From: Escherichia phage dhaeg
DNA length: 64,000 nt
Sequence record: MN850609.1
Strand: one strand, 5' to 3'
The translations under genes were made by a program, and so were the position numbers. Positions 3,711-47,372 of the stretch are shown here, one piece after another (position 1 is the first letter of the stretch; the number at the start of each line of letters is the position of its first letter). The notes under the pieces are model-generated. The model saw only the letters and a program-made list of their open reading frames with translations, was not told the origin of the DNA and ran no database searches.

Positions 3711-5693
3711 TTATACTAAAGGTCCAATCAATTCATCAAAATCAGCACCAGTGCTCGTTGCAACGAAGTTCAACGTGATGTAGTTAATAGAACGAGAAGG
3801 TTTTACGTATATATTAGCAATAAACTCGTTACGGTCGATAACCGCAGGGGTGTTCACTGTAGTATCACAAACCACACGTCCTTCATAAATCCCACCAAGT
3901 GCCTTAATACCATCTAAGTACTGAGAAACTTCCATACGGAAGCTTGAACGAGTGAAGTTATCGTTCAATTCAAACAGTTTATATTTAGAGGCATCACCGA
4001 TATTTTTCTTAAGCATGTTGAACAGACGGCGAACGTTAATGTGGTCCATCGGAGATGGAACTTTAGTTGCAGTCTTATCACCAAACAATACGAAACCATC
4101 ACCACCAGCAAAACCAACAACTGGGTTAATAGCTTCCTGGTACATGCGGTCGCGTTGTGCTTGGCGTGGTTCAATTGCCAATTTCAGAACGTTAAGAATC
4201 TGACCACGGTTATAACCAGCAGGAGACATCCAAGGCTGAGACACATCATCAGTACGTGCACACAAACCAGCCATATCAGCAGCCAGTGGTACCCAACGGT
4301 TTACGTCATTATATTTGTCATACTGATATTTATAGTTACCATCAATAGCAGCATAAGTGGTACTGATGTTCATGTTGTTGGCATCGAAATTACCAGCACC
4401 GGTACGCCAGTCAATAAGGTTATCTACTGCACGAGTCAGTGGAACGTTAACCAACAGTCCTTTAGGAGGAGAAATAAATGCTAAGCAATCCTGACGTTCA
4501 TCAGCAATACTCACAACGTGTTTCTGAACAGTAGAAGCCACTTCGTCGCCTTCACCAGCAACAGCACCGGCAATAAGCAGGTTAATATGGAGTGCTTCAC
4601 GATCGGCAAACAAATCCCAACCTTGCATCAAATCGCCTGCAGTAACTTTATCGTTAGCAGAAACACCGCCCATCAGATTAATGATACCGCTGAAGCCTTT
4701 AGGCCAGTTCAAAGAGGTAGCAAAAATATAGTTGGAAGTACCTTTAGCGAAATAGTCGTCAAGATAAATGTTATTACCGTAAACGTCTTTTTCACCTTCT
4801 TTGGTAGAAAGTACGACAGATTCTACGATAGCGCCATCGCGACGAACAATAATTGCGTATTGGTCATCTGTTTGCGGTCCGTAATTAAATACTGCCTTGG
4901 CAATAGAAGCACGGGTACCACCGCCAGGATAAATATCCAGCATTTTAGAAGAACCAGCATCATAAGCGGCTTTGGAAACGATTTCTACTTCCAGAGTAGA
5001 ACCAATTTCACCGGGATAAAGAGCCACTACGCCTGGCATAGCAAATTTCTTAAGAGAAGCTTGGAATTCAAGAGAAGTAATAGCTTCTTCACTATTCTCT
5101 GCTTCAGTCAAAAGAATACCGGAATCCGTAACAATTTTACCTACGGTAATAGTACCAGAAACACCGGAAGATGCAGAAGTAACTTCAGCGGTCCAAGCTG
5201 GGCCAAGGGTAGGATACTGGTTTAAAGAACGTGCATAAGCAATAATTTTTGCTGACGGAATAAACACGGAAAGAATTTTACCGTCTGTATCTACAGAAGT
5301 CACACGACCTTCAGATTCGACTACAGTTTGGTTATATTTAATATTGATTTTATCGCCTACTGCATAGTTGGAACCGGCCGTAGTAATAGTGGTCTCAATG
5401 TTACCAGCGATAGGAGATGCGTTTTTAGCAAATTCGCGACTAACAACACGAACTGTGCGAAGGTCATTACCATACTGGAGGAAGTTCATACCAGACATAA
5501 AGTAATCTGCTACTTCGTTATTAGGACCTCCAAATAAATCAACCAGTTCAACTTCATTAGTAATCTGAGTTACCTGGAAAGCAGGGCCCCACTGGAATTT
5601 ACCTACCAGCGCTGCACGACCCGTTGCGTTACGAACGACAGTACTCTGTACGGACGTTTCTTTGAGCTCAATGCCCGGTGATAATAAAGCCAT
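3711..5693 (-). CDS. 18: tail sheath protein gp18
   Basis: 660 aa; MALLSPGIELKETSVQSTVV... closely matches recalled T4 gp18 along its length. Confidence 0.95.
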   Translation of the reverse strand: MALLSPGIELKETSVQSTVVRNATGRAALVGKFQWGPAFQVTQITNEVELVDLFGGPNNEVADYFMSGMNFLQYGNDLRTVRVVSREFAKNASPIAGNIETTITTAGSNYAVGDKINIKYNQTVVESEGRVTSVDTDGKILSVFIPSAKIIAYARSLNQYPTLGPAWTAEVTSASSGVSGTITVGKIVTDSGILLTEAENSEEAITSLEFQASLKKFAMPGVVALYPGEIGSTLEVEIVSKAAYDAGSSKMLDIYPGGGTRASIAKAVFNYGPQTDDQYAIIVRRDGAIVESVVLSTKEGEKDVYGNNIYLDDYFAKGTSNYIFATSLNWPKGFSGIINLMGGVSANDKVTAGDLMQGWDLFADREALHINLLIAGAVAGEGDEVASTVQKHVVSIADERQDCLAFISPPKGLLVNVPLTRAVDNLIDWRTGAGNFDANNMNISTTYAAIDGNYKYQYDKYNDVNRWVPLAADMAGLCARTDDVSQPWMSPAGYNRGQILNVLKLAIEPRQAQRDRMYQEAINPVVGFAGGDGFVLFGDKTATKVPSPMDHINVRRLFNMLKKNIGDASKYKLFELNDNFTRSSFRMEVSQYLDGIKALGGIYEGRVVCDTTVNTPAVIDRNEFIANIYVKPSRSINYITLNFVATSTGADFDELIGPLV

Positions 5694-5722
5694 TTTGAAT
5701 CCTCTTGGTTATGCTTTATTGT

Positions 5723-8032
<2,310 letters not shown>

Positions 8033-32437: not shown

Positions 32438-33061
32438 ATGAAAACTTACAATGAATTTTTGAACGAAAGCGTTCTGACTGAAGCCAGCGTGCGCATGACT
32501 AAAGATATGTGGCAAGCTGCTTATGATAAAATTTCCGGGACTAAAACCACTACCGAGTTCTTTAAAAACGTTTATGATATGTATGGTTTTGATACTAGTA
32601 ACCAGAAAGAATATTACAAAGCTTCCAAAGCTTTTAAAGATATCGTAGCCGGTGGCGCTACTAAACCTGCTAAACCAGCTAAAGCTCCTGTTGCTAAACC
32701 TGCAGCCCCAACCAAAGTTGCACCACCTAAACCTGCGGCAGCACCTAAAGCAGAGCCTGTAAAAGAAGCTCCTAAACCTAAAATCAAGTTCGACACCAGC
32801 ACTATTGTTAAAAAATATAACCAACTGGCTTCTTTGGTTTCTGAAATAGAATCCGAAACTAAACACCTTGTTCGTGAATTCAATGTTCTTCGTAACGGTC
32901 AACACATTAACAACCTGGACACACCAGACCTTTATCGTCTCTATCTGACGGTTGAAGGCCTTAAGTACACCCAGCCTATGCGCGAAGAAATTGACAACAA
33001 ACTTCGTCAAGCACGCCGACTGGCCGGTGACGCAGCTCAGTTCGAAAAGACTCGTAAATAA
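32438..33061 (+). CDS. internal-protein-like protein with capsid-targeting-sequence-like N-terminus and Pro/Ala/Lys-rich linker
   Basis: 207 aa; N-terminus MKTYNEFLNES...LTEA; low-complexity KPAKPAKAPVAKPAAPTKVAPPKPAAAPKAEP linker; late promoter upstream. Confidence 0.6.
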   Translation: MKTYNEFLNESVLTEASVRMTKDMWQAAYDKISGTKTTTEFFKNVYDMYGFDTSNQKEYYKASKAFKDIVAGGATKPAKPAKAPVAKPAAPTKVAPPKPAAAPKAEPVKEAPKPKIKFDTSTIVKKYNQLASLVSEIESETKHLVREFNVLRNGQHINNLDTPDLYRLYLTVEGLKYTQPMREEIDNKLRQARRLAGDAAQFEKTRK

Positions 33062-33505: not shown

Positions 33506-33904
33506 ATGAATATCGAAGATAAAGAAATGCAAGAGTTGTATAATTCATTAACGCCTGAACAACAAAAAGCTGCCAAAGAATTAGAGAAAGCTCTTACTTT
33601 CAGCTTGGCAAAAACTGATTGGGCCGCCATGTATGAAGAAAAAAGGAGATCGGAAATTGAAGCTGTCGAGAGAAATGAATGGATTGTAGAAACCAAGATT
33701 TCTGATGGTGGTTGCTCTGTTGAGGTGTCAGCTGTGGTTAAAGGTACTCATGGTGAAAAATCACTAGGTTGGCATAATGAGGCAAACAAATATATTGTTC
33801 TCTCAACGTCAAAAACTTATGGTCAAAGGGTTCCTGTATCCAAAGCTATTATTAAGCAAGCTCAATGGGAAGCCAATGAAATTTGCCTAGCAAAAATGAA
33901 ATAA
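33506..33904 (+). CDS. hypothetical protein
   Basis: 132 aa ORF with GAGGAG RBS. Confidence 0.55.
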
Positions 33905-33907
33905 AAT

Positions 33908-33943
33908 GTTTACAACCCTCAGAGGACAGGGTATAATGTCCTC
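33908..33943 (+). promoter_or_regulatory. early promoter with promoter-spanning stem-loop (consensus TTTACA-17-TATAAT)
   Basis: gTTTACA ... TATAAT with stem AGGACA...TGTCCT flanking the -10. Confidence 0.6.
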
Positions 33944-33980
33944 ATGGATTACAAAATATCAACCGACTGAAGGAAATACT

Positions 33981-34574
33981 ATGAACACTTTAAAGAAAAT
34001 CGTTGAATTCATCCGTTCTAAACTGGGTACCGCAATGACTCAGAACCTGTCAATCGAAGACCAGTATACTAAAGCTGCTTCTACCCTGATTGATAAAATT
34101 ACTGAACTCCAGACTGCTCATGTTAAGTCTGTGAATGAAGAAAAACGTATTCGCGAGTTAGCGAATGAAAAAGACCAACTCGCCGCTTCAAAAGAGCGTG
34201 AAATTCGTAAACTGATTAAAGAAGGCGCCGATGTCCAGGTGCATGCTAAACTTGGCCTCCTTTATCGTCGTACAGCTAATCAACTTCGTAAGAAAGCAGA
34301 CGATTATATCGAAATGCGTAATGAAATTAAACTGAAGGTCAAGGAACTTGATGACTCTCGTCAAGAACTGGCTGTTAAGCTCGAGTACATCCGTGAAACT
34401 CGTAATATGGCTGCCCTTGGTATTGCTACTGCCGATGATGTGGTTGAAATCGCTGCACTGACTAAGATTGATATTGAAGATACCCTGCTGCGTGTAGAAA
34501 CGTTTAAAGGCCCACAAGTTGGAATGGATACGACTTCAGCCGATATCGAAGACTACATTAATTCACTTAAGTAA
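33981..34574 (+). CDS. coiled-coil protein (weak PspA/IM30-like impression, unverified)
   Basis: 197 aa, predominantly heptad-like charged helices; start at ATG 33981 after GAAGGAAA; ORF-track start 33906 reads through the promoter. Confidence 0.5.
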
Positions 34575-34581
34575 TATTACC

Positions 34582-34604
34582 GGGAGACTTCGGTCTCCCT
34601 ATTT
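34582..34604 (+). terminator. hairpin, possible weak terminator
   Basis: GGGAGAC-UUCG-GUCUCCC followed by UAUUU (poor U-tract). Confidence 0.35.
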
Positions 34605-34622
34605 GGAGGAGAGGAGAATATT

Positions 34623-35177
34623 ATGAGTTTATATGATAACCTTATATCAAATATTGATTGGTTTAAAAATAGTGGTCTTTCCCATGAAACCAATTCAGTT
34701 CTTTATAGAATTCGCCAAGACCTAGGCTATTCAAACGATTTCTTAAGCAGAACATCTAGCCGTGGCGATACTACCAAATTACCTTTTATTTTTGCTTTAG
34801 CTGAAGACCTTTCTTTTGAAGATGCTTTGGAAATTATTGACGTAAATCTGGCTATTCAACGAGTGGAATTCGCTGGACTACGTTATTCAGTATATTCTTT
34901 AAATGAGAGCAATGATTGCGTGCTTCTTAATATGGCAGACGATGATTACCATTTAGTATGCTATGTGGCTTTAGAAAATGGTGATGTATTTGGAATGGTC
35001 GACCGCCGCCCAACTTATACTGATATTAAAAATTATGATAAAGATGAGCTTCTTGATTTGGCGGCTGAGTACACATTAGAGAGTCGTAAACGGAAACGTA
35101 AGCTTAATCGTTTTATTGCTGAATGTCGTGAATATGCTAAAGGGGTTCAAAATGCGAACGTTATATCTGCCAAGTAA
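34623..35177 (+). CDS. hypothetical protein with C-terminal K-x-N-x-L-x-x-F-I-x-E-C-R module
   Basis: 184 aa; ends ...KRKLNRFIAECREYAKG... Confidence 0.5.
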   Translation: MSLYDNLISNIDWFKNSGLSHETNSVLYRIRQDLGYSNDFLSRTSSRGDTTKLPFIFALAEDLSFEDALEIIDVNLAIQRVEFAGLRYSVYSLNESNDCVLLNMADDDYHLVCYVALENGDVFGMVDRRPTYTDIKNYDKDELLDLAAEYTLESRKRKRKLNRFIAECREYAKGVQNANVISAK

Positions 35178-35511
35178 ACCAGAAAAATTTGTATACGCAG
35201 ACAAGATTGATAAAGACCTTATGCCTCCATTTGGGGCTCTGTCCATGTGCATCGTTGGAATTATAATGATGGTTGTTTGTGGAGATATGAATATCATCAG
35301 TGTTGGAGTCGCCTGGACGCTAGTAATTACAGCTCCTTTTATTACAGTCCTGTGTATGGTATTGATAAATGTGTGGCATCAAAATCATATGAATAAAGGA
35401 TATCGTGGGCGAGTTAAAGAGTGGGAACAAAAATGTGTTTCCCTACAAGAAGAGCACAAAATTAAATGTGCCGAAGAATTTATTAAGGAGGTTCGTAATG
35501 GAACGGCCTAA
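35152..35511 (+). CDS. membrane protein with C-terminal F-I-K-E tail
   Basis: Start at ATG 35152 after AAGGGG; two hydrophobic helices; ends ...EEFIKEVRNGTA. Confidence 0.45.
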   Translation: MRTLYLPSKPEKFVYADKIDKDLMPPFGALSMCIVGIIMMVVCGDMNIISVGVAWTLVITAPFITVLCMVLINVWHQNHMNKGYRGRVKEWEQKCVSLQEEHKIKCAEEFIKEVRNGTA

Positions 35512-35851
35512 TCTTGCATCACATGTTTATCAATTGGCTGAATATGATATTGGTGCCAATTTATTATTAGGGATTGCCACCGGTATGCTTGGCGGCTTGG
35601 TTGGTCTGGTAATGACCACGGTTATGGCTGCAATCGAGGGAGTCATGCCCATTGAGATGGGTTTCTATATGATAATCGCTCCGGCTGTCGTGGCTTATTT
35701 TATCCCTCTAGTGTATGATATTTGCCATACAAATGCTTTGAATGCTCCCATCCGTAAGAGATATGCTTTAGAGATGGCTAATTATAATGAGTATGTAAAA
35801 CAAACCAAACGTAATGACCTTGAAACCTTTATTAAGGAATGTAAATCATGA
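35499..35851 (+). CDS. membrane protein with C-terminal F-I-K-E-C tail
   Basis: Start at ATG 35499 after AAGGAGG; hydrophobic helices; ends ...RNDLETFIKECKS. Confidence 0.45.
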
Positions 35852-36138
35852 ATAAAATTGAAATTGAAATCCCTGAATACAACGACGAGAAATCTGCAGA
35901 AAAAGCTATCTATGCTCTTCTGAATAAAGTAGATATCATCGAATCCAAATGTGAAGCTATTGCCGATAAGTACGGTATTCAATTCGGAACAGGTGATTAT
36001 GGCTCAGGACGTACATACTATCCGGTCGGTTATGAATGCTCCCAGTGGTTTAAAGATGAAATTGAAAACAATGGCGGTGAAGTTGAAAATGGCGTCGTTA
36101 CAGTTGGTGCCTGGGTCTCCTCTTCGGCAATGTGCTAA
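35848..36138 (+). CDS. small protein, paralog 1 of tandem family with C-terminal WVSSSxxC tail
   Basis: 96 aa; ends ...GAWVSSSAMC; ATG overlaps upstream stop. Confidence 0.6.
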   Translation: MNKIEIEIPEYNDEKSAEKAIYALLNKVDIIESKCEAIADKYGIQFGTGDYGSGRTYYPVGYECSQWFKDEIENNGGEVENGVVTVGAWVSSSAMC

Positions 36139-36147
36139 GGAAAAGCT

Positions 36148-36429
36148 ATGATGAATGATAATCATAACCATCCAGAGCTTCTGGCCGCAGTAAAAGAAAT
36201 TCATGAAGCTATTCGTCGTGCCGAGGAAATTGCAGATAAATATGAGACTCATTTTAATATATACCCTGCTCGCGGTATGGGCGGTGACTATTATTCTCCT
36301 GGCGCCTTGAAAGCTGACCTTGCCCATTGGGAAGAAGATGGTCATCCTGAATGGGCTATTGTTAATACTCATGACTATACAACTGACCTCGCAACTGGCG
36401 GTTGGGTGTCCTCTTCTTCTGAATGTTAA
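36148..36429 (+). CDS. small protein, paralog 2 of tandem family with C-terminal WVSSSxxC tail
   Basis: 93 aa; ends ...GGWVSSSSEC; AAGGAAA RBS. Confidence 0.6.
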   Translation: MMNDNHNHPELLAAVKEIHEAIRRAEEIADKYETHFNIYPARGMGGDYYSPGALKADLAHWEEDGHPEWAIVNTHDYTTDLATGGWVSSSSEC

Positions 36430-36438
36430 GGAAATATT

Positions 36439-36636
36439 ATGTCTCGTGAATTAGATTGTGCAATCCGAACTGCCGCGGCGGCAATTGAAAACGTTATTCA
36501 AATTTGTAAAGAAGAACGCGAAGAAGCTGATATCTATATTGATGGTGCTCGTGACTTAGAACGACATATAACGCTTTATAACGGTTGTATTACTATTAGT
36601 GGTACCTCTTGGGTGTCCTCTTCTTACGAATGCTAA
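36439..36636 (+). CDS. small protein, paralog 3 of tandem family with C-terminal WVSSSxxC tail
   Basis: 65 aa; ends ...TSWVSSSYEC; AAGGAAA RBS. Confidence 0.6.
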   Translation: MSRELDCAIRTAAAAIENVIQICKEEREEADIYIDGARDLERHITLYNGCITISGTSWVSSSYEC

Positions 36637-36645
36637 GGTAATAAA

Positions 36646-36858
36646 ATGACTATTGATGAAATTGAAAAACAAATCCGTGAATTAGTACGTAAAGGCCAGT
36701 CCGTGGCTGATGAAACAGGTGAAGAATTTTATGTTTCTGGACGCGGTCAATACATTTCTCCAAAGAATCCAGAATATGATGATTACGAATGGGTCCGTGA
36801 TGACTACGGTATCCCAGAAGGTGAAGGTTTCTGGTTTAGCTCCTCTATGTCTTGCTAA
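36646..36858 (+). CDS. small protein, paralog 4 of tandem family with C-terminal WFSSSxxC tail
   Basis: 70 aa; ends ...GFWFSSSMSC; AAGG RBS. Confidence 0.6.
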   Translation: MTIDEIEKQIRELVRKGQSVADETGEEFYVSGRGQYISPKNPEYDDYEWVRDDYGIPEGEGFWFSSSMSC

Positions 36859-36868
36859 GGAATAAAAA

Positions 36869-37093
36869 ATGTCTAATATTAATGAATTGGAAAAAGCAGC
36901 TCTTGAACTGGCTGCGCTGTATAAGAAAGTAAAAGATATGGCTTCTGCCCAGGATTTTGGTGTTGAGCTAGATGATTACGACGGTGAAGTTCGTCTTGAA
37001 GATTGGCTGAATAGCTCTTGTTATGGTGAAGAAGCTGGTCGTACCTTCGTTGCTCGCTCCGATGGTAAAATCTGGTACCCGAGCTCATGCTAA
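36869..37093 (+). CDS. small protein, paralog 5 of tandem family (degenerate W-Y-P-S-S-C tail)
   Basis: 74 aa; ends ...GKIWYPSSC; AAGGAA RBS. Confidence 0.55.
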   Translation: MSNINELEKAALELAALYKKVKDMASAQDFGVELDDYDGEVRLEDWLNSSCYGEEAGRTFVARSDGKIWYPSSC

Positions 37094-37314
37094 AATTAAA
37101 GAAAAGATACATTCGTAAAATAAATGGTCTTCGCGATTATGCCAAAGGTTGGCCGTTAAGTATTATTATGGCTGATAGACACCCACGTTATAATACCGAG
37201 TTGACCTATTATAAAAAGTATGATTCATATTGTCGGTCTAAAGCCGGTCGTTTAGATGGTTCTTATGAAGAATACTTTGGTAAAAAACCTACTCGTATTT
37301 CGTTAGGAAAATAA
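37087..37314 (+). CDS. hypothetical basic protein
   Basis: 75 aa, Lys/Arg/Tyr-rich; overlaps upstream stop. Confidence 0.45.
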   Translation: MLKLKKRYIRKINGLRDYAKGWPLSIIMADRHPRYNTELTYYKKYDSYCRSKAGRLDGSYEEYFGKKPTRISLGK

Positions 37315-37344
37315 TTTAGCCACACGGATGTGGTAGGAGGACTT

Positions 37345-37674
37345 ATGCACAAAGATTCAGTATTCAAATATCTTTTGAAAACAGATAAAGAATTCTATAT
37401 GAATGGGCAAGCTTTCTTGTTCGTCCGTGGTAAACGTGAGATGTTTTATAAATGCGACCTCTCAATGCACCATCATATGTATCATACCCACGGCGAGCCT
37501 ATACTAGGGTTCTCTGGTGACGAGACTAGACACATAGCTATGTACTATGACCATTTTAAGCTCAATGATTGTGGTGACAACGCTTTGGTCTGGAACCCAT
37601 CTTGGAGACGTTGGGATACAGTAGACAGCGATAAATTATTTTTAGAATATTGCAGAAGTGATGTACAACTCTAA
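37345..37674 (+). CDS. hypothetical His-rich protein
   Basis: 109 aa; ATG after TAGGAGGA RBS (ORF-track start 37330 is GTG); His cluster HHHMYHTHG. Confidence 0.5.
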   Translation: MHKDSVFKYLLKTDKEFYMNGQAFLFVRGKREMFYKCDLSMHHHMYHTHGEPILGFSGDETRHIAMYYDHFKLNDCGDNALVWNPSWRRWDTVDSDKLFLEYCRSDVQL

Positions 37675-37718
37675 AAACTTGTGTTACTATTACCTTACAC
37701 AAACATGAGGGGAACATT

Positions 37719-37958
37719 ATGTGGTATTATTCTCCACTGTCTGATAAGTCTGATGAGCCGGTACGCATTAGTCGTGCCAAGTTTAAAAAGATTTATGGCT
37801 TTGCCTATAAGAAGTCTGATTACGGTGTTCGTTTTGAAGATGCCCACTGTATCAACGACCCTTATGCAGAAGAAATCTCTAATGAGATAATTCCTATCAT
37901 TAAGAATAATTCTGATGATATGTGGGAATTGCATAACGATTACGTTGCTGAAATTTAA
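37719..37958 (+). CDS. hypothetical protein
   Basis: 79 aa ORF, GAGGGGAA RBS. Confidence 0.5.
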   Translation: MWYYSPLSDKSDEPVRISRAKFKKIYGFAYKKSDYGVRFEDAHCINDPYAEEISNEIIPIIKNNSDDMWELHNDYVAEI

Positions 37959-37979
37959 GTTTACTCTGAGGAAAATATT

Positions 37980-38147
37980 ATGTATAATGTTCTTATTGTT
38001 TTTGTTACTCACCCACAAGGTGGCGTAAGGCAGAATACTTCCCAAGTGGTCCAATTTTCTTCACTAGAGGCTGCTAATCTAGCCGCAACGCGTATTGAAG
38101 CAAAAAAATCTGAACTGGGTAAATATGAAGTAACTCGTCTTTATTAA
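37980..38147 (+). CDS. hypothetical small protein (55 aa)
   Basis: ORF below the 60-aa track cutoff; GAGGAAAATATT RBS; fills an otherwise empty gap. Confidence 0.4.
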   Translation: MYNVLIVFVTHPQGGVRQNTSQVVQFSSLEAANLAATRIEAKKSELGKYEVTRLY

Positions 38148-38160
38148 TGAGGAAAATATT

Positions 38161-39120
38161 ATGATGCTAGTTATTGGTTCTCGTGCACTGCACCACGCTG
38201 GTCTGATTGAAAGTAAGTATATCGAAAATTCTGATTGGGATTTTATTGCCGACCAGGGGTCATGGAATAATTTTAAAGCACAGATGTTTGGCGCCCATGT
38301 ACACGTAGACAACCCTGACGTCCAGGCTTTTAAATGCATGCACAACGGTAAAGAAACCTATTTTGAAGCTTATATCGTCCGCGCCTTGACTAACGTACGT
38401 GAAATTACCGGCGAACTCCAAGATGAGGATTTCACCTCAAGCTACCGCCTTCTGAATTATGCTAAAACACATATTAAGAAAGATCGGATGACGGGTTTCT
38501 ATTGGGCCACGCCTGATATCTGTCTGGCCATCAAAATGAGCCATCGTTATTTGAAGAACAACCCTTTCTTTTTGAAGACGATGTCCCACATCAAATACCT
38601 TCGTAATAAAGGTGTAACCTTGAATGAAGAGCTCCAAGAAATCATGCTGCAACGTCAGAAAGAAACGTTGAGCTATTCTCATCCTAAATTAGATGTAAAC
38701 AAATCATCGTTCTTTAATGATACCATCTATACATTAGACCACGACTCTATTCATGAAGCTGTGGCATTAGCCGGACGCCCAGCGTATACCTTTTATATGA
38801 AAGATGGTTCTGAAGTCATGACCTCTCGTGAGAAGTTTGAAGCTTTGCCTGAAGCTATTAAACTGGCAGGGGTTTATGAAGAAGCATGTGTACTTGCTCT
38901 AGAGCGTTCGCAGGTTCCTAATGACTTTAATATCCCAGCAGCCACAAGTTTCTATATGGCTCTTGAGAAAGTGTGCACCTCAATCACTTCAGGTTGGTTC
39001 CGTGAGTATGCCTGGGAAAACTACCAAGCTGTAGTGAATATGTATAGGACCCTAGGTGAAAGTGACTACATCAACCGGTTTAAGCGTAATCAACATTTAA
39101 TTCGTCCTTTCGAAAAATAA
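38161..39120 (+). CDS. nucleotidyltransferase-fold protein (Pol-beta superfamily-like)
   Basis: 319 aa; N-terminal h-G-S-x(n)-D-x-D pattern (IGSRALHHAGL...SDWDF) typical of minimal nucleotidyltransferases; helical C-terminal domain. Confidence 0.55.
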   Translation: MMLVIGSRALHHAGLIESKYIENSDWDFIADQGSWNNFKAQMFGAHVHVDNPDVQAFKCMHNGKETYFEAYIVRALTNVREITGELQDEDFTSSYRLLNYAKTHIKKDRMTGFYWATPDICLAIKMSHRYLKNNPFFLKTMSHIKYLRNKGVTLNEELQEIMLQRQKETLSYSHPKLDVNKSSFFNDTIYTLDHDSIHEAVALAGRPAYTFYMKDGSEVMTSREKFEALPEAIKLAGVYEEACVLALERSQVPNDFNIPAATSFYMALEKVCTSITSGWFREYAWENYQAVVNMYRTLGESDYINRFKRNQHLIRPFEK

Positions 39121-39132
39121 TTGCATAAAACA

Positions 39133-39166
39133 GTGTACAAGGTCTATAGGTGTGATACTATAGACC
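39133..39166 (+). promoter_or_regulatory. early promoter cassette with promoter-spanning stem
   Basis: TGTACA-16-TACTAT; inverted repeat GGTCTATAG...CTATAGACC spans the -10. Confidence 0.5.
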
Positions 39167-39198
39167 TATCAAAACAACAGAGTGAAATGGAGAATAAA

Positions 39199-39411
39199 AT
39201 GAAACTTTCTAACCAAGCAATCAACATGTTAAACGAAGTTCGTGCAGCTGGTGCTAAATGTCTGATGGTTAACACTCGTGACGGTGACCTTCGTCAAGCA
39301 TTTGGTGAATTGAAATCTGCTGACCTGGTTAAATGTTCGGTTGGTATCGGTAATGCACTTCGTGTATCCTTATCCCCTAAAGGTAAAATGTACTTTTTCA
39401 ACAAAAAGTAA
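39199..39411 (+). CDS. hypothetical protein
   Basis: 70 aa; ATG after conserved ggagaataaa RBS. Confidence 0.5.
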   Translation: MKLSNQAINMLNEVRAAGAKCLMVNTRDGDLRQAFGELKSADLVKCSVGIGNALRVSLSPKGKMYFFNKK

Positions 39412-39440
39412 TATACATTCTCGTAAGATATGTTATTATA
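39411..39440 (+). promoter_or_regulatory. possible early promoter (weak -35)
   Basis: TATTAT -10-like hexamer followed by conserved agacctatcaaaacaaatgagtga leader shared with other cassettes. Confidence 0.4.
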
Positions 39441-39476
39441 GACCTATCAAAACAAATGAGTGAATTGGAGAATAAA

Positions 39477-39707
39477 ATGAAAGCCATCATGAGTGTTTTA
39501 GCCCTGAGCTTGGTTGCTTTAGCTGCAGTTCCTTTTATTGTTGATGTTGGAGACGAAACACAAGTTGAATCCTCAATCGTTGTCAGTAAAGATGGTACAT
39601 CGGTTAAGATCGGTAATAATCTCCATATGAATCCTAATGGTACTTTAGGTGTTCAGCTCGGTAACACATGTGTAAGCACAACTGGTAAAGTTAATACTTG
39701 CTTCTGA
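39477..39707 (+). CDS. small secreted protein (signal peptide)
   Basis: 76 aa; N-terminal MKAIMSVLALSLVALAAVPF hydrophobic signal-like segment. Confidence 0.5.
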   Translation: MKAIMSVLALSLVALAAVPFIVDVGDETQVESSIVVSKDGTSVKIGNNLHMNPNGTLGVQLGNTCVSTTGKVNTCF

Positions 39708-39717
39708 GGAAAATATT

Positions 39718-40404
39718 ATGAACAGCCCAAAAACTTTTAATTCTCAAGCTCGTGCAGTAGGCGGTTTCGCTGGTAAAATTTCTAACGATAAAATCAAAAA
39801 CGAAACTATGTTCTTCAACAGCTCATTGGCTTTCGCTTTTGATAATGGTGGCCCTATTACTCGTAGCTTTATAATGAGTCTGCCGGATGATTGGAACACC
39901 GACCAGGTTGTATTTGATTCTCGGGTTCATATGCTGATGCCTGGTTGGTATCCTGCTATCCCAGGTTATCACCATGATGATGTACCACGCCCGGATATTC
40001 CGGTTGGTCAACACTTTATTACTGCAGGGCAACCTGATTATGATAACCCTCGATACCATTCTGAACATATTCTTGGTCTTGTTAACGCTGATGTGTGTCC
40101 TACTTATTTTGCAACCGGAACTGCACAATTTAGCCAGATTCCTGATGGCGAACTTATCTATCGCCAGTGGCATAAAGAAGTTCTGGAAAAAATTGAGTCT
40201 AATGAATTAACCAAGTGGGATGCTCCTGACCGTACATTGCTCCAGTTTGATTGGCAGACATGGCATACAGGTTCCCGTGCAGTAAGTAACGGATGGCGCT
40301 GGTTTGGTCGTGTGTCTCGTAATACCGACCGTGTTAAAAAGATTACAAATGAAATCCGCGTTAATGCTCAAGTATATCTGGAATTCCCTATGGAGGGCTG
40401 GTAA
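39718..40404 (+). CDS. hypothetical protein
   Basis: 228 aa ORF, GAGGAAAATATT RBS. Confidence 0.55.
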   Translation: MNSPKTFNSQARAVGGFAGKISNDKIKNETMFFNSSLAFAFDNGGPITRSFIMSLPDDWNTDQVVFDSRVHMLMPGWYPAIPGYHHDDVPRPDIPVGQHFITAGQPDYDNPRYHSEHILGLVNADVCPTYFATGTAQFSQIPDGELIYRQWHKEVLEKIESNELTKWDAPDRTLLQFDWQTWHTGSRAVSNGWRWFGRVSRNTDRVKKITNEIRVNAQVYLEFPMEGW

Positions 40405-40991
40405 TGGCCCTTTATGAACCTGGTTGCATGGGTGTTGATGTAAACTTCATCCGTCGGTCTGAAAATGCCGGAATCATTATCCCAAATGGTGAGAATATGA
40501 TTATTAAAAAGTCCTGGCGAAATATTGATGATGCTGATGAAGGAATTTCAGCCAGTACAGTAGATTGGTCAGGATGTACTGCTGAAATGAAACAACTTTT
40601 AATTGAGGAATATAAAATGGGCTATATCGTAAATGGTTGGCAACCGGAACCCCATAAAGAACAGACGCCAGACCCATTGATTTGTTATAGCAAAAAATAC
40701 GGCTTCCGTACATGGAGTGATGAATACGACAAATTGGTGAGTTCTAGGTTCTATGTTTGGATGGGGATATTATTTTTCCCACTCCTAGGGTTTTTCCTGA
40801 CAACGGATAATGACCTGCCTATTACGCTATTTGCTTCAGCGATGTCTGCGGCTATCTTAGGACTTATCGCATCATTTTTATGGACTGCAGTTATTGAAGT
40901 ACCTTTTCGTATTTCTAAAGTTAAAAAGGTATATGACGATATCACTAAGAAAAATACATTAAACTCTTTTATTGAGGAATGCCGTAAATGA
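40404..40991 (+). CDS. membrane protein with C-terminal F-I-E-E-C-R-K tail
   Basis: 195 aa; two hydrophobic helices near C-terminus; ends ...KKNTLNSFIEECRK. Confidence 0.55.
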   Translation: MALYEPGCMGVDVNFIRRSENAGIIIPNGENMIIKKSWRNIDDADEGISASTVDWSGCTAEMKQLLIEEYKMGYIVNGWQPEPHKEQTPDPLICYSKKYGFRTWSDEYDKLVSSRFYVWMGILFFPLLGFFLTTDNDLPITLFASAMSAAILGLIASFLWTAVIEVPFRISKVKKVYDDITKKNTLNSFIEECRK

Positions 40992-41224
40992 GTATTGCGA
41001 TTTATATTAAATCTGAGTCATGCGATTCTTATCTGTATTCCTATGACACTGGAACATCAGAAGAGAAAATCAAAGAAGATTTAGAAAGCGACTTGGATAT
41101 GTTCCGACCTATTTCTGATTATATGGTCCAAATATCTGATAGTGAAAGTCCGTCATTAGAAAATAGACTTGAAATTTTAATGAGCGACATTTTTAACCAA
41201 TCATGGAAACGAGACGATGAGTAA
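40988..41224 (+). CDS. hypothetical acidic protein
   Basis: 78 aa; ATGA overlap with upstream gene. Confidence 0.5.
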   Translation: MSIAIYIKSESCDSYLYSYDTGTSEEKIKEDLESDLDMFRPISDYMVQISDSESPSLENRLEILMSDIFNQSWKRDDE

Positions 41225-41666
41225 AAAAGTTAAAGAACTATCCGCCGGTATTTTGTTTATGACCGCCGATAAAGAATTGGTTATGGGTCGTGTAACAGGT
41301 TCTCGTAATCCAGAGAATATGCGTCATAAATGGGACATCCCTAAAGGTCATGTCGAACCGGGTGAAGAGCCTATTCAAGCAGCAATGCGTGAAACTGAAG
41401 AAGAGATTGGATTCACTGCATACGATCCTGCGTTCCTGAAAGACCTAGGTGAGTTCAAATATTCTAGCAATAAGAATCTACACCTGTTCTTATATACTGT
41501 GCCTGTCGAACACGAGCAGTTCAAGAATTGCAAATGTACAGCTTACCACACGTTCCCTGATGGTCGTACGATTCCTGAATTTGATGCCTTCGCCTTGATT
41601 AAACGCCCGCAATGGGAATACGTCATGGGCCCGTCGATGTTTAAGGTTTTAGATTCGCTCTTTTGA
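41217..41666 (+). CDS. nudE: Nudix hydrolase
   Basis: 149 aa; Nudix box GHVEPGEEPIQAAMRETEEEIG; position immediately upstream of e as in T4. Confidence 0.85.
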   Translation: MSKKVKELSAGILFMTADKELVMGRVTGSRNPENMRHKWDIPKGHVEPGEEPIQAAMRETEEEIGFTAYDPAFLKDLGEFKYSSNKNLHLFLYTVPVEHEQFKNCKCTAYHTFPDGRTIPEFDAFALIKRPQWEYVMGPSMFKVLDSLF

Positions 41667-46799: not shown

Positions 46800-47372
46800 A
46801 TGGCTCAACTTTATTTTCACTATGCGGCAATGAACTCAGGTAAGACAGCTTCATTGCTAACGGCGGCTCATAACTACAAAGAACGTGGTATGGGCGTGCT
46901 CCTTTTAAAGCCTGCGATAGACAATAGAGAATCAAGCCATACCATTTCGTCTCGTATAGGGATTAGTCAAGAGGCTAATGCAGTGACTCCGGATATGGAC
47001 CTATACGAGTTCTATCGTTGGGCTGAATCTCAAAAAGATATCCACTGTGTGTTTGTGGATGAAGCACAGTTCTTAGAACCTGCACAGATAAAACAACTGG
47101 CAAAGATAGTAGACAATTATAATGTTCCAGTTATGTGTTATGGACTAAGAACTGATTTTCAGGGTAAACTGTTTCCTGGTTCTGCCGAATTACTCGCTAC
47201 GGCAGATAAACTCGTTGAGTACAAAGGTGTGTGCCATTGTGGCCGTAAAGCTACTATGACTGCTAGGGTCCAAGATGGTATCGCAATTAAGGACGGAGCC
47301 CAAGTTTCTATAGGTGGCAACGATTCTTACGTGTCATTGTGCAGGAAGCACTGGATAGAAATAACGAGTTGA
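46800..47372 (+). CDS. tk: thymidine kinase
   Basis: 190 aa; ...YAAMN.GK.ASLL.AAHNYKERGM.VL.LKPAID.R ... IHCVFVDEAQFL ... VCHCG.KA.MTAR ... SLCRKHW matches recalled T4 Tk. Confidence 0.95.
   Translation: MAQLYFHYAAMNSGKTASLLTAAHNYKERGMGVLLLKPAIDNRESSHTISSRIGISQEANAVTPDMDLYEFYRWAESQKDIHCVFVDEAQFLEPAQIKQLAKIVDNYNVPVMCYGLRTDFQGKLFPGSAELLATADKLVEYKGVCHCGRKATMTARVQDGIAIKDGAQVSIGGNDSYVSLCRKHWIEITS

What the first reader, a model, noticed from the sequence alone, without database searches (positions are those of the whole stretch)
34623..35851. Second shared C-terminal module (K-x-N-x-L-x-x-F-I-x-E-C-R/K) on four otherwise unrelated proteins, three of them membrane proteins
The proteins at 34623-35177 (...KLNRFIAECREYAKG), 35152-35511 (...AEEFIKEVRNGTA), 35499-35851 (...NDLETFIKECKS) and, further downstream, 40404-40991 (...NTLNSFIEECRK) end with the same short motif, although their N-terminal and transmembrane parts differ. 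Codons at the motif vary (GCT/AAG/GAG; TGT/GTT/TGC; CGT/AAA), supporting protein-level conservation. Three of these genes lie directly upstream of the five-paralog array and also place a Cys near the C-terminus. Together the two families may form one functional module, for example membrane receptors plus small cargo or effector proteins, or shared-tail superinfection/immunity factors. This is speculative.
Basis: partly seen in the sequence, partly recalled or inferred. Interest (0 to 1): 0.6.

Follow-up and report, generated by a model that had tools for sequence, protein, structure and literature searches.

The report
Shared tail motif beside phage PspA
Four T4-type phage proteins (the counterparts of T4 e.5, e.4, e.3 and e.2) end in the same short helical motif, which recurs on about twenty protein families and always lies next to a phage homologue of the membrane-repair protein PspA, so it is probably a shared docking tag for one membrane-associated module whose function is still untested.

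Summary
A, C and D carry F-I-x-E-C-[RK] within 15 residues of the C-terminus. B has a weaker copy (FIKEVR). Chance expectation in the window is 0.02-0.04 and 3 are observed.

The window is a Dhakavirus. A, B, C and D are the positional counterparts of T4 e.5, e.4, e.3 and e.2. T4 and RB69 carry the same tails.

In 13 Straboviridae lineages the core hydrophobic-x-x-[FWY]-[IV]-x-x-C-[RK] sits on about 20 PHROG families. These are two-transmembrane proteins with cytoplasmic tails and also soluble proteins.

Synonymous codons vary freely. The downstream ribosome-binding site shifts while the residues stay, and the motif persists where no gene overlaps. It is therefore protein-level. The RBS explains only the K-E/K-G bias at the two middle positions.

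Every motif cluster begins directly after e.6, which I find to be PspA/Vipp1-like. A published HHpred result for its PHROG family agrees.

Best reading: a cytoplasmic docking helix that ties these proteins to a common partner, plausibly the e.6 polymer, as PspB/C bind PspA or LiaI binds LiaH. Binding is inferred, not shown.

The link to the WVSSSxxC array is co-location only; T4 and six of the other lineages lack that array.

The parts
33981..34574 (+). e.6 homologue (197 aa from the ATG at 33981): PspA/IM30/Vipp1-like helical-hairpin protein. It is the conserved first gene of the block.
   Evidence: - Matches phrog_1203 at 3e-83.
- A profile of e.6 homologues has Vipp1 as its top PDB matches, collinear from residue 1 to about 145, E 0.016-0.06.
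- AF2 predicts a hairpin, H2-80 and H86-145, with pLDDT above 90 over residues 40-130.
- The Foldseek top 9 hits are all Vipp1.
- Pfam PspA_IM30 is sub-threshold in 2 of 10 homologues, best E 4e-4.
- PMC9409062 reports HHpred homology of phrog_1203 to PspA.
- A promoter-like TTTACA-17-TATAAT lies at 33909-33937.
34581..34602 (+). GC-rich hairpin with a UUCG loop (GGGAGAC-UUCG-GUCUCCC) between e.6 and gene A. It is a possible attenuator or RNA-stabilising element.
   Evidence: - Sequence; fold.
- T4 record L13089 annotates a stem-loop at the same position, after msp3 = e.6.
- Its function was not tested.
34623..35177 (+). Gene A: 184-aa soluble protein, the positional equivalent of T4 e.5.
   Evidence: - Matches phrog_8788 at 4e-114; no Pfam hit and no TM segment.
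- Found in 82 phage records, all among Dhakavirus and close relatives.
- blastp against T4 e.5 matches only the 15-residue tail.
35103..35129 (+). Motif in A: L-N-R-F-I-A-E-C-R.
   Evidence: -.
- The motif is not the SD of the next gene here. The codons are GCT GAA, and the SD AAAGGGG lies 15 nt further on.
35152..35511 (+). Gene B: 119-aa two-TM protein of the T4 e.4 family. An in-frame alternative ATG lies at 35134, inside A's E-Y codons, where T4 e.4 starts.
   Evidence: - Matches phrog_2604 at 4e-46; blastp to T4 e.4 gives 3e-16; relatives carry precomputed PF26873.
- It is a presence/absence cassette. It is missing from dhabil and JS98 with exact ATG-to-ATG boundaries.
35479..35496 (+). 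Degenerate motif in B: F-I-K-E-V-R.
   Evidence: -.
- AAG GAG G is the SD for gene C.
- The e.4 family generally has S/I/V/L at the Cys position.
35498..35851 (+). Gene C: 117-aa two-TM protein of the T4 e.3 family.
   Evidence: - Matches phrog_2330 at 4e-46; blastp to T4 e.3 gives 4e-9 over the full length.
- The tail-coding 60 nt is the best-conserved island of the gene among relatives.
35819..35845 (+). Motif in C: L-E-T-F-I-K-E-C-K.
   Evidence: -.
- AAGGAA (K-E) lies 9 nt before the overlapping ATGA start of the next gene.
35848..37093 (+). Five-gene WVSSSxxC array directly downstream of C. It is a neighbour, not shown to be part of the same machine.
   Evidence: - ORFs.
- The same placement between e.3 and e.2 is seen in RB69 and JS98.
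- The array is absent from T4 and six of the other lineages examined.
40404..40991 (+). Gene D: 195-aa protein of the T4 e.2 family, with a cytoplasmic N-domain, a two-TM hairpin and a tail.
   Evidence: - Matches phrog_2203 at 1e-70; PF26896 (Phage_T4_Y06M) is precomputed on the identical protein.
- AF2 predicts TM1 as H105-132 and TM2 plus tail as one helix, 138-194, with pLDDT 75-90.
40959..40985 (+). Motif in D: L-N-S-F-I-E-E-C-R.
   Evidence: -.
- I190, C193 and R194 are three of only seven invariant columns across 22 e.2-family members that go down to 23% identity.
40988..41666 (+). Right-hand boundary of the block: an ORF130c-like gene (phrog_2900, 40988-41224) and nudE (41217-41666).

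Best explanation
**What the genes are.** A, B, C and D are the Dhakavirus versions of T4 e.5, e.4, e.3 and e.2.

**What the motif is.** Their shared tail is a selected protein motif: hydrophobic-x-x-[FWY]-[IV]-x-x-C-[RK]. The hydrophobic residues at i, i+3, i+4 and i+7 lie on one face of an alpha-helix. In the membrane proteins this helix continues TM2 into the cytoplasm. In the soluble proteins it closes the chain.

**What it most likely does.** It is a docking helix through which unrelated proteins bind one common partner or one another. Every such gene cluster starts directly after e.6, a PspA/Vipp1 (ESCRT-III superfamily) homologue. The most plausible partner is therefore the e.6 polymer at the inner membrane. 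The two-TM proteins would act as anchors or sensors, as PspB/PspC do for PspA and LiaI does for LiaH. The soluble e.5-like proteins would be recruited clients. Together they would form a phage-encoded module that maintains or remodels the membrane.

**Role of the RBS.** The two variable middle residues are biased to K-E or K-G because those codons (AAGGAA, AAAGGA) double as the Shine-Dalgarno sequence of the overlapping next gene.

**Shown:** the motif; selection at protein level; cytoplasmic placement by the positive-inside rule; synteny with e.6; the PspA-like nature of e.6.

**Inferred:** that the motif is a binding site, and that e.6 is the partner.
For: **1. The motif recurs widely.**
- T4 e.5, e.4, e.3 and the remnant of e.2 carry it, as do RB69 e.5-e.2.
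- So do a metagenomic T4-like contig, Klebsiella Roth66, Serratia X20, Aeromonas 65 and ZPAH1, a Karamvirus, Providencia PSTCR6, Pseudotevenvirus EC-W1, Erwinia IT22 and Yersinia phiR1-RT.
- In 38 tabulated copies the residues are F33/W3/Y2, I30/V8, C29 and R34/K4.

**2. Selection acts on the protein.**
- Synonymous codons are balanced: TTT 20/TTC 13, TGC 15/TGT 14, AGA 15/CGT 9/AGG 5/CGA 4.
- In the e.2 family the TM region diverges beyond recognition, yet I, C and R of the tail are 3 of 7 invariant columns.
- An exhaustive HMM search returns distant members ending FIKGCRK, WIEGCRK or FIKDCRK.

**3. The motif is not an RBS artefact.**
- The SD lies in the K-E codons in window B, C and D and in T4 e.5 and e.4.
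- It lies in the R-K codons (AGGAAA) in T4 e.3, T4 e.2 and RB69 e.2.
- It lies outside the motif in window A.
- The motif is kept with no overlapping downstream gene in Roth66 102 aa and Karamvirus 117 aa.
- It is kept 24-31 residues before the stop in Aeromonas 65 191 aa and EC-W1 315 aa.

**4. The tails are cytoplasmic and helical.**
- All 22 two-TM members examined have K/R-rich C-tails of 20-70 residues.
- AF2 predicts TM2 plus tail of D as one continuous helix.

**5. Many families carry it.** About 20 PHROG families do, both soluble and membrane proteins.

**6. Synteny with e.6.** In 13 of 13 Straboviridae lineages the gene directly after e.6 carries the motif (degenerate in Providencia PSTCR6). 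In the 64-kb window no real gene outside the block has it, apart from a chance match in thymidine kinase.

**7. e.6 is PspA/Vipp1-like** (and PMC9409062).

**8. Precedent.** Small inner-membrane proteins recruit PspA-family proteins, as reviewed in PMC7619361.

**9. The Cys acts as a small hydrophobic residue.** It is replaced by V, I, L or M in whole sub-families (e.4 and phrog_9350). That fits a helix-interface residue better than a catalytic or metal-binding one.
Against: - No binding data exist, and no complex model could be run.
- The partner is inferred from gene order only.
- In Ackermannviridae the e.6 homologue is followed by membrane proteins that lack the strict motif; only I-[VI]-x-x-A-R tails are present. 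e.6 therefore does not need this motif.
- Evidence that e.6 is PspA-like is consistent but each line is marginal.
  - PDB profile E is 0.016.
  - Pfam is below threshold.
- The motif-coding DNA is also a local identity peak and sits at mosaic breakpoints and cassette junctions. Part of its conservation among close relatives may therefore reflect recombination rather than selection.
- The near-invariant Cys-Arg pair could point to chemistry rather than docking.
Confidence: 0.5

Rival explanations
1. **By-product of gene overlap.** The residues would be conserved only because the same nucleotides carry the Shine-Dalgarno sequence and spacing for the translationally coupled next gene.
For: - In window B, C and D and in T4 e.5 and e.4, the codons for positions 3-4 read AAGGAA, AAGGAG or GAGGAA at 6-11 nt before the next ATG.
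- Positions 3-4 are strongly biased to K (18 of 38) and E/G (24 of 38), that is AAR-GRR.
- Most motif genes overlap the next gene by ATGA.
Against: - The invariant residues F, I/V, C and R lie outside the SD and use all synonymous codons.
- The SD shifts to the R-K codons in T4 e.3, T4 e.2 and RB69 e.2 while the motif stays.
- Window A, RB69 e.5 (ATG GAA) and the L017 235-aa protein have no SD in the motif.
- Four proteins keep the motif with no overlapping gene or more than 24 codons before the stop.
Confidence: 0.07
2. **Inheritance and junction retention without a function of its own.** The two-TM genes would be tandem paralogues that inherited the tail. Upstream genes such as A and e.5 would keep it because recombination that swaps gene bodies breaks upstream of the next gene's start region. 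The patch would persist as a homology block for cassette shuffling.
For: - B is an exact ATG-to-ATG cassette flanked by a repeated start region.
- The T4 e.5/e.4 and e.4/e.3 junctions are alignable DNA, and e.3 and e.4 both start M-x-K-P.
- A natural e.4-e.2 hybrid protein exists, P0202.
- In mosaic C genes the last 60 nt are 98-100% identical while the rest is 35-65%.
- A and T4 e.5 share only the tail by blastp.
Against: - The motif survives at amino-acid level between subfamilies (Tevenvirinae versus Emmerichvirinae) where the DNA is not conserved.
- It occurs on small soluble proteins that are not at array borders (L017 100 aa, Roth66 102 aa, Karamvirus 117 aa).
- Within one genome the copies share too little DNA identity to serve as recombination substrates.
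- Neutral relics would decay as the TM segments have.
Confidence: 0.15
3. **Cysteine chemistry.** The Cys-Arg pair would be a reactive or metal-binding site, for example an inter-subunit zinc or disulfide clasp or a modification site. It might work together with the C-terminal Cys of the WVSSSxxC proteins.
For: - C is present in 29 of 38 copies and R in 34 of 38.
- The e.2 N-domain has a further conserved Cys, in D-W-x-x-C.
- Where the WVSSSxxC array is present it lies inside the same gene block.
- Some database records name e.3/e.4 relatives 'sulfurtransferase'.
Against: - Whole sub-families replace the Cys by V, I, L, M or S (e.4 family, phrog_9350 family).
- The tails are cytoplasmic, a reducing compartment.
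- Seven lineages have motif proteins and no WVSSSxxC genes.
- The 'sulfurtransferase' name has no support in NCBIfam or Pfam scans.
Confidence: 0.1
4. **Turnover or targeting signal.** The motif would be a C-terminal tag read by a host protease or by a membrane-targeting or insertion factor, so that the levels or location of all these proteins are set together.
For: - Many copies lie at the extreme C-terminus and end in basic residues (CRK, CRKIK, CRGKK).
- The tails are exposed in the cytoplasm.
Against: - The distance to the C-terminus ranges from 0 to 31 residues, which does not suit a terminal degron.
- No resemblance to known ClpX or SspB tags was found (own knowledge, not tested).
- Soluble and membrane proteins share the motif, which argues against an insertion signal.
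Confidence: 0.08

Closest known systems
Phage T4 genes e.5, e.4, e.3 and e.2 (deposited as msp4-msp7 in GenBank L13089; Pfam PF26873 for e.4, PF26896 Phage_T4_Y06M for e.2)
   Same: - The gene order is the same: e.6, then e.5-e.2, then nudE, then e.
- B, C and D fall in the same PHROG families as e.4, e.3 and e.2.
- The C-terminal motif is the same.
   Different: - A belongs to a different PHROG from T4 e.5, and only the tail matches by blastp.
- An array of other genes separates C from D here and in RB69 but not in T4.
- T4's own e.2 is disrupted.
- None of these genes has a described function, and my literature searches found no description of the shared motif.
PspA with its membrane partners PspB/PspC (E. 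coli), and LiaH with LiaI (B. subtilis)
   Same: - A PspA-family gene is followed by genes for small inner-membrane proteins with cytoplasmic C-terminal helices.
- In the known systems these proteins recruit PspA/LiaH to the membrane (PMC7619361).
   Different: - There is no sequence relation to PspB, PspC or LiaI.
- There are several paralogous or unrelated partners plus soluble ones, all marked by one short motif.
- The system is encoded by a lytic phage.
- Binding is not shown.
ESCRT-III MIM helices that bind MIT domains
   Same: A short amphipathic helix at or near the C-terminus, ending in a basic residue, serves as a common address on several different proteins of an ESCRT-III system (own knowledge).
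   Different: - Here the motif is on the neighbours, not on the ESCRT-III-like protein.
- Its spacing and the Cys differ from the MIM1 consensus (D/E)xxLxxRLxxL(K/R).
- No MIT-like receptor is known.
- e.6's own C-terminus ([10 protein letters not shown]) only loosely resembles the motif.
Phage-encoded PspA homologue of phrog_1203 proposed for Kuttervirus SeF3a (PMC9409062)
   Same: It is the same PHROG family as window e.6. The authors propose that it protects the proton-motive force against abortive-infection systems.
   Different: - That paper does not describe partner proteins or the motif.
- In Ackermannviridae the neighbours lack the strict motif.
Modular shuffling at conserved gene-boundary sequences in T4-type hyperplastic regions (PeSL cassettes; own knowledge)
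   Same: Cassette gain and loss and mosaic joints occur exactly at short conserved boundary sequences.
   Different: PeSLs are intergenic promoter and stem-loop units. Here the conserved patch is coding and is kept at the amino-acid level between subfamilies.

Membership tests
T4 e.2 family (phrog_2203; Pfam PF26896 Phage_T4_Y06M), for D | Significant full-length match to the family profile | tested here: met
   phrog_2203 at E 1.2e-70 over residues 32-195. PF26896 is precomputed on the identical protein P0001.
T4 e.2 family, for D | Position upstream of the ORF130c-like gene and nudE | tested here: met
T4 e.4 family (phrog_2604; Pfam PF26873), for B | Significant full-length match to the family profile and to T4 e.4 | tested here: met
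   phrog_2604 at 4.2e-46. blastp to T4 e.4 gives 2.6e-16 over 122 columns. Relatives carry PF26873.
T4 e.3 family (phrog_2330), for C | Significant full-length match to the family profile and to T4 e.3 | tested here: met
   phrog_2330 at 4.3e-46. T4 e.3 is in the same PHROG at 2.9e-57. blastp gives 4e-9 over the full length.
T4 e.5 family (phrog_2607 and relatives 13418, 34714, 33129), for A | Sequence match of the protein body to the family | tested here: inconclusive
   - A hits only phrog_8788.
- blastp to T4 e.5 covers only the 15-residue tail.
- hhalign without the tails gives 27% probability, on a shared Y-S-x-x-S-L-N-[DE] strand.
- Other e.5-position proteins do cross-hit phrog_2607.
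T4 e.5 family, for A | Position directly after e.6 and before e.4, with the tail ...F-[IV]-x-E-C-R-E-Y-[AV]-K | tested here: met
Psp/Lia membrane partners (PspB PF06667, PspC PF04024, LiaI), for B, C and D | Sequence membership in a known partner family | tested here: not met
   Pfam and NCBIfam scans give no such hit.
Psp/Lia membrane partners, for B, C and D | Small inner-membrane protein encoded next to a PspA-family gene, with a cytoplasmic C-terminal helix | tested here: met
   Gene order. Tails are K/R-rich and predicted helical. e.6 is PspA-like.
Psp/Lia membrane partners, for B, C and D | Physical binding to the PspA homologue | not testable with these tools
   No complex prediction or experiment was available.
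PspA/IM30/Vipp1 (Pfam PF04012), for e.6 | Match to PF04012 above the gathering score | tested here: not met
   The window e.6 has no PF04012 hit. Two of 10 homologues match below threshold, best E 4e-4.
PspA/IM30/Vipp1, for e.6 | N-terminal amphipathic helix followed by a long alpha1-alpha2/3 hairpin, collinear with Vipp1 | tested here: met
   - The profile alignment to Vipp1 is collinear over 1-145.
- AF2 predicts the hairpin 2-80 / 86-145.
- The Foldseek top 9 hits are Vipp1.
- Published HHpred evidence covers phrog_1203.
ESCRT-III MIM1 motif | Consensus (D/E)xxLxxRLxxL(K/R) on the ESCRT-III subunit itself | tested here: not met
   By inspection of the 38 copies, the spacing and residues differ and the motif is on neighbouring proteins. 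The consensus is quoted from my own knowledge.

The most novel reading that the evidence does not exclude
T4-type phages, T4 itself included, would encode a complete Psp/ESCRT-III-like membrane system. e.6 would be the PspA-like polymer. A family-independent C-terminal address helix (hydrophobic-x-x-[FWY]-[IV]-x-x-C-R) would recruit a changing set of two-TM anchors or sensors and soluble clients to it. Phages would diversify this set by cassette exchange at the motif-coding junctions, for example to keep the infected cell's membrane energised against abortive-infection or superinfection damage.
Probability: 0.3. Interest if true: 0.8.

Novelty: new variant of a known kind. Interest (0 to 1): 0.62.

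Why it matters
**A testable handle on unexplained T4 genes.** The e.2-e.8 block of T4 has been sequenced for over thirty years without a function. One short motif shared by about twenty protein families, all beside a PspA/Vipp1-like gene, turns a list of hypothetical proteins into a hypothesis. The motif can be mutated, used as bait, or used as a search key.

**If the tails do dock on e.6.**
- This would be the first partner-recognition code for a viral PspA/ESCRT-III-type system.
- It would be a new example of how phages manage the host inner membrane.
- It would bear on lysis timing, abortive-infection defences that collapse the membrane potential, and phage therapy strains.

**Annotation.** The motif flags unannotated or mis-started genes, as in Yersinia phage phiR1-RT.

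Tried and rejected
**Searches that gave nothing**
- Pfam, NCBIfam and PDB-sequence searches of A-D and of the e.5-like group gave no informative hit.
- Literature searches for the T4 e.x genes, for PF26896, and for PspA in Straboviridae found nothing on the motif.

**Ideas tested and weakened or dropped**
- B, C and D as clear paralogues. hhalign supports only the B-C N-termini (90%) and the C-D tail (60%). With the tails removed nothing significant remains. I therefore do not claim a superfamily.
- A as a clear e.5 homologue. This remains inconclusive.
- A looser regex, [FWY][IV]..C[RK], as a detector. It also hits the thymidine kinase C-terminus (YVSLCRKH, 47328) and an antisense ORF inside gene 5 (25084). 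Both are chance matches.
- e.6's own C-terminus as a motif copy. A PSSM gives 8.6 bits for the window protein, the best of the non-members, but 2.3 bits for Aeromonas 65. The evidence is too weak to claim this.
- The 'sulfurtransferase' names on e.3/e.4 relatives. No model supports them.
- Similarity of F-I-A-E to the N-terminal capsid-targeting sequence and gp21 cleavage site of T4 internal proteins. I considered this from memory and set it aside. The motif is C-terminal, sits on membrane proteins, and often lacks the Glu.

Full report
**1. Source and genes**

- The window is a Dhakavirus, a JS98-like T4-type phage. Bases 33900-41300 match Escherichia phage dhabil at 98.3% over 96% of their length.
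- The finding lies in the variable block between the tRNA genes and the lysozyme gene e.
- The local gene order is e.8, an ORF, e.6, A, B, C, five WVSSSxxC genes, several others, D, an ORF130c-like gene, nudE, e, denV.

**2. Observation check**

- The four ORFs and their tails are as described, except that C starts at 35498, not 35499.
- The regex F[IV].[ED]C[RK] matches only A, C and D among 624 six-frame ORFs, always within 15 residues of the stop.
  - Expectation is 0.017 by composition and 0.037 by shuffling; P is about 1e-6.
- B matches only a relaxed form, FIKEVR.
- B, C and D each have a two-TM hairpin followed by a K/R-rich tail. A is soluble.

**3. Identity of the genes**

- PHROG scans and blastp place B with T4 e.4 (phrog_2604), C with T4 e.3 (phrog_2330) and D with T4 e.2 (phrog_2203; Pfam PF26896 Phage_T4_Y06M).
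- A (phrog_8788) occupies the place of T4 e.5 (phrog_2607) but matches it only over the last 15 residues.
- The T4 and RB69 tails are:

| Gene | T4 | RB69 |
|---|---|---|
| e.5 | ...LLEKFVKECREYVKAITIPSK | ...LEQFIMECREYVK... |
| e.4 | ...IMKFVKESRCKSQS | ...AMEFVKEIRCKSLNS |
| e.3 | ...MKEFVIDCRKIK | ...IENFIKECRK |
| e.2 | disrupted; downstream remnant ends ...LNNFITECRKLK | ...VERFITECRNLR |

- The motif therefore belongs to a known but uncharacterised gene set of T4-type phages. GenBank L13089 lists these genes as msp1-msp8.

**4. Is it only the ribosome-binding site?**

Three-frame reading of the junctions gives a mixed answer.

- In window B, C and D and in T4 e.5 and e.4, the codons for motif positions 3-4 (AAG GAA, AAG GAG, GAG GAA) are the Shine-Dalgarno sequence of the overlapping next gene.
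  - This explains the bias of these positions to K and E/G.
- In T4 e.3, T4 e.2 and RB69 e.2 the SD is AGGAAA, in the R-K codons, and two extra residues restore the spacing.
- In window A the motif reads GCT GAA, and the SD AAAGGGG lies further on.
- Four proteins keep the motif without any overlapping gene or 24-31 residues before the stop.
- The conserved residues use all synonymous codons in balanced numbers: TTT 20/TTC 13, TGC 15/TGT 14, and five Arg codons.
- The motif is therefore selected as protein. The RBS shapes only its middle.

**5. Breadth**

- An exhaustive profile search with the e.2 family found only 18 cluster representatives.
  - The distant ones, 23-36% identical to D, end in FIKGCRK, WIEGCRK, FIKMCRNS or FIKDCRK.
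  - I190, C193 and R194 are three of seven invariant columns in the whole family, while the TM region is unalignable.
- I then used e.6 as an anchor (1110 phage records) and read the downstream genes in the further Straboviridae lineages listed below. With the window, T4 and RB69 this makes 13 lineages.
  - In every one, the gene directly after e.6 ends with the motif. In Providencia PSTCR6 it is degenerate.
  - Each lineage encodes one to seven motif proteins.

| Lineage | Examples of motif tails |
|---|---|
| Klebsiella Roth66 | IIDEFIKYCRKRVQK, FNTWIRSCRK; SIDMFIAKCRAK lies after nudE |
| Serratia X20 | AIDEFVKMCRT..., EIEYFIKECR, ISDFIKGCRK |
| Aeromonas 65 and ZPAH1 | LQDFIKECRY..., LRRFVNECRL..., LESFIKECRKIVS |
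| Karamvirus | seven copies |
| Pseudotevenvirus EC-W1 | MEKFIHSCKK... |
| Erwinia IT22 | LSDFIAMCRESVKV, FERFIEDCRK |
| Yersinia phiR1-RT | LLDFIDQCRR...; two more copies in unannotated or mis-started genes |
| Metagenomic contig L017 | motif proteins present |

- The general form is hydrophobic-x-x-[FWY]-[IV]-x-x-C-[RK].
- About 20 PHROG families carry it.
- In the loci examined, the only matches outside the block are thymidine kinase and antisense ORFs.

**6. Are the carriers related?**

- hhalign supports a relation between B and C only at the N-terminus (90%), and between C and D only at the tail. With the tails removed nothing significant remains.
- Some PHROG cross-hits link two-TM families.
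- Several e.5-position families cross-hit each other.
- A's relation to these families stays unresolved.
- The motif is thus much better conserved than the proteins that carry it.

**7. Structure and topology**

- All 22 two-TM carriers examined have K/R-rich C-tails of 20-70 residues, so the tails are cytoplasmic by the positive-inside rule.
- AF2 predicts TM2 and the tail of D as one continuous helix, 138-194, with pLDDT 75-90.
- On a helix, the residues at i, i+3, i+4 and i+7 (L/I, F, I/V, C) form one hydrophobic stripe flanked by charges.
- Two sub-families (e.4 and phrog_9350) have V, I, L, M or S instead of Cys. The Cys therefore behaves as a small hydrophobic interface residue.

**8. 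The neighbour e.6**

Several lines point to a PspA/Vipp1-like protein.

- A profile of ten e.6 homologues has Vipp1/IM30 as its best PDB matches, with E 0.016-0.06.
  - The alignment is collinear from residue 1 to about 145 and includes the hairpin-tip region.
- AF2 from a single sequence gives a confident helical hairpin.
- The nine best Foldseek hits are all Vipp1, followed by CHMP1B and PspA.
- Pfam PspA_IM30 appears below threshold in 2 of 10 homologues, best E 4e-4.
- A published analysis independently reports HHpred homology of phrog_1203, the PHROG of window e.6, to PspA. It proposes a role in protecting the proton-motive force (PMC9409062).

Expression signals:

- e.6 has its own promoter-like site.
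- A UUCG hairpin follows e.6 and precedes A. T4 has an annotated stem-loop at the same position.

Outside Straboviridae:

- In Ackermannviridae the e.6 homologue is also followed by membrane proteins, but these have only degenerate I-[VI]-x-x-A-R tails.

**9. Mechanism**

- Known PspA-family proteins are recruited to the membrane by small inner-membrane proteins: PspB/PspC, and LiaI for LiaH (PMC7619361).
- By analogy, and from the strict synteny, I propose that the motif is a cytoplasmic docking helix. It would tie two-TM anchors and soluble e.5-like proteins to a common partner, most plausibly e.6.
- Shown: the motif, selection on the protein, placement, synteny, and the PspA-like nature of e.6.
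- Inferred: the binding and the identity of the partner.
- I put 0.85 on a selected protein-level motif. I put about 0.5 on the docking-helix reading within an e.6-linked module, which is the figure given for the best explanation. I put about 0.3 on e.6 itself being the partner.

**10. Recombination**

- Gene B is absent from dhabil, JS98 and others. It is bounded exactly by repeated start regions (AAAG[G/A]GGTTC[A/G][A/T]AATG).
- Mosaic C genes switch from 35-65% to 98-100% identity just before the tail.
- A natural e.4-e.2 hybrid protein exists, P0202.
- The motif-coding ends are thus also the seams at which this block is reshuffled.
- This may add to their conservation among close relatives, but it cannot explain conservation between subfamilies.

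**11. Relation to the WVSSSxxC array**

- The array lies inside the block in six lineages: Dhakavirus, RB69, L017, X20, the Karamvirus and phiR1-RT. PSTCR6 also has copies.
- It begins directly after a motif-bearing gene in five of those six lineages and in PSTCR6; in phiR1-RT it follows a second motif gene.
- It is absent from T4, Roth66, Aeromonas 65 and ZPAH1, EC-W1 and IT22.
- The motif proteins therefore do not need it, and a joint function remains possible but unsupported.

**12. Verdict**

- The genes are known T4-type ORFs of unknown function.
- The shared motif and its strict association with a phage PspA-like gene appear undescribed in the literature I could search.
- I class this as a new variant of a known kind: a Psp-like system with a novel partner tag.

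Noticed in passing
window 33981-34574: e.6, a conserved gene of unknown function present in more than 1100 phage records, looks like a PspA/Vipp1 (ESCRT-III superfamily) protein. Its C-terminus ([10 protein letters not shown]) loosely resembles the tail motif.
   Followed up: yes
L003 (T4 NC_000866 65500-73500), minus strand, about 1973-2461: In the T4 reference genome e.2 is cut short at 102 aa by a frame disruption. The remainder of the ancestral gene, with the LNNFITECRKLK tail overlapping the nudE start, is still readable downstream. Other Tequatroviruses have the full 160-162 aa gene (P0203).
   Followed up: partly
window 35134-35511; L002 2640-2820: Gene B is a presence/absence cassette among Dhakaviruses, with exact ATG-to-ATG boundaries between two copies of the same start region. 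An in-frame ATG at 35134, the position used by T4 e.4, could be an alternative start.
   Followed up: partly
protein P0202 (Escherichia phage vB_EcoM-UFV05): A natural hybrid protein has the N-terminus of e.4 joined within the first TM segment to the C-terminal half of e.2. It implies a deletion that removed e.3.
   Followed up: no
window 35848-37093 and 38161-39120: The WVSSSxxC array co-occurs with the DUF7277/DUF7275 protein. Both are present in 6 of 6 lineages that have the array, and the DUF protein is present in 0 of 6 lineages without it. The two may form their own functional pair.
   Followed up: partly
window 32438-33061: This 207-aa protein (phrog_2280) starts MKTYNEFLNE. That looks like the N-terminal capsid-targeting sequence and L-x-E cleavage site of T4 internal head proteins (from memory, not tested).
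   Followed up: no
L029 (Yersinia phage phiR1-RT) 6911-7550: The annotated gap holds an unannotated two-TM gene that ends ...AFKDFISECRGR. Gene g129 (49 aa, ...EFITYCRGNK) appears to start too late, because its TM part lies upstream in the same frame.
   Followed up: partly
proteins P0066, P0100, P0108 and others: Several database records name e.3 and e.4 relatives 'sulfurtransferase'. No NCBIfam or Pfam model supports this, so it is probably a propagated annotation error.
   Followed up: partly
window 34581-34602: A GC-rich UUCG-loop hairpin lies between e.6 and gene A. T4 has an annotated stem-loop at the same place. It may lower read-through into the partner genes or stabilise the e.6 transcript.
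   Followed up: partly
window 47328-47345 (tk, 46800-47372): The thymidine kinase C-terminus (YVSLCRKH), also present in RB69 tk, matches the loosened motif pattern by chance. This is a warning for motif-only searches.
   Followed up: yes
L026 and L027 (Kuttervirus pertopsoe, Taipeivirus phi1_175010) 4986-6389: In Ackermannviridae the e.6 homologue is followed by an N-terminally anchored membrane protein of about 190 aa and a one-TM protein of 55-60 aa ending IVDKARKRRSK or IIKQARSRTRQ. This may be a distant form of the same arrangement.
   Followed up: partly
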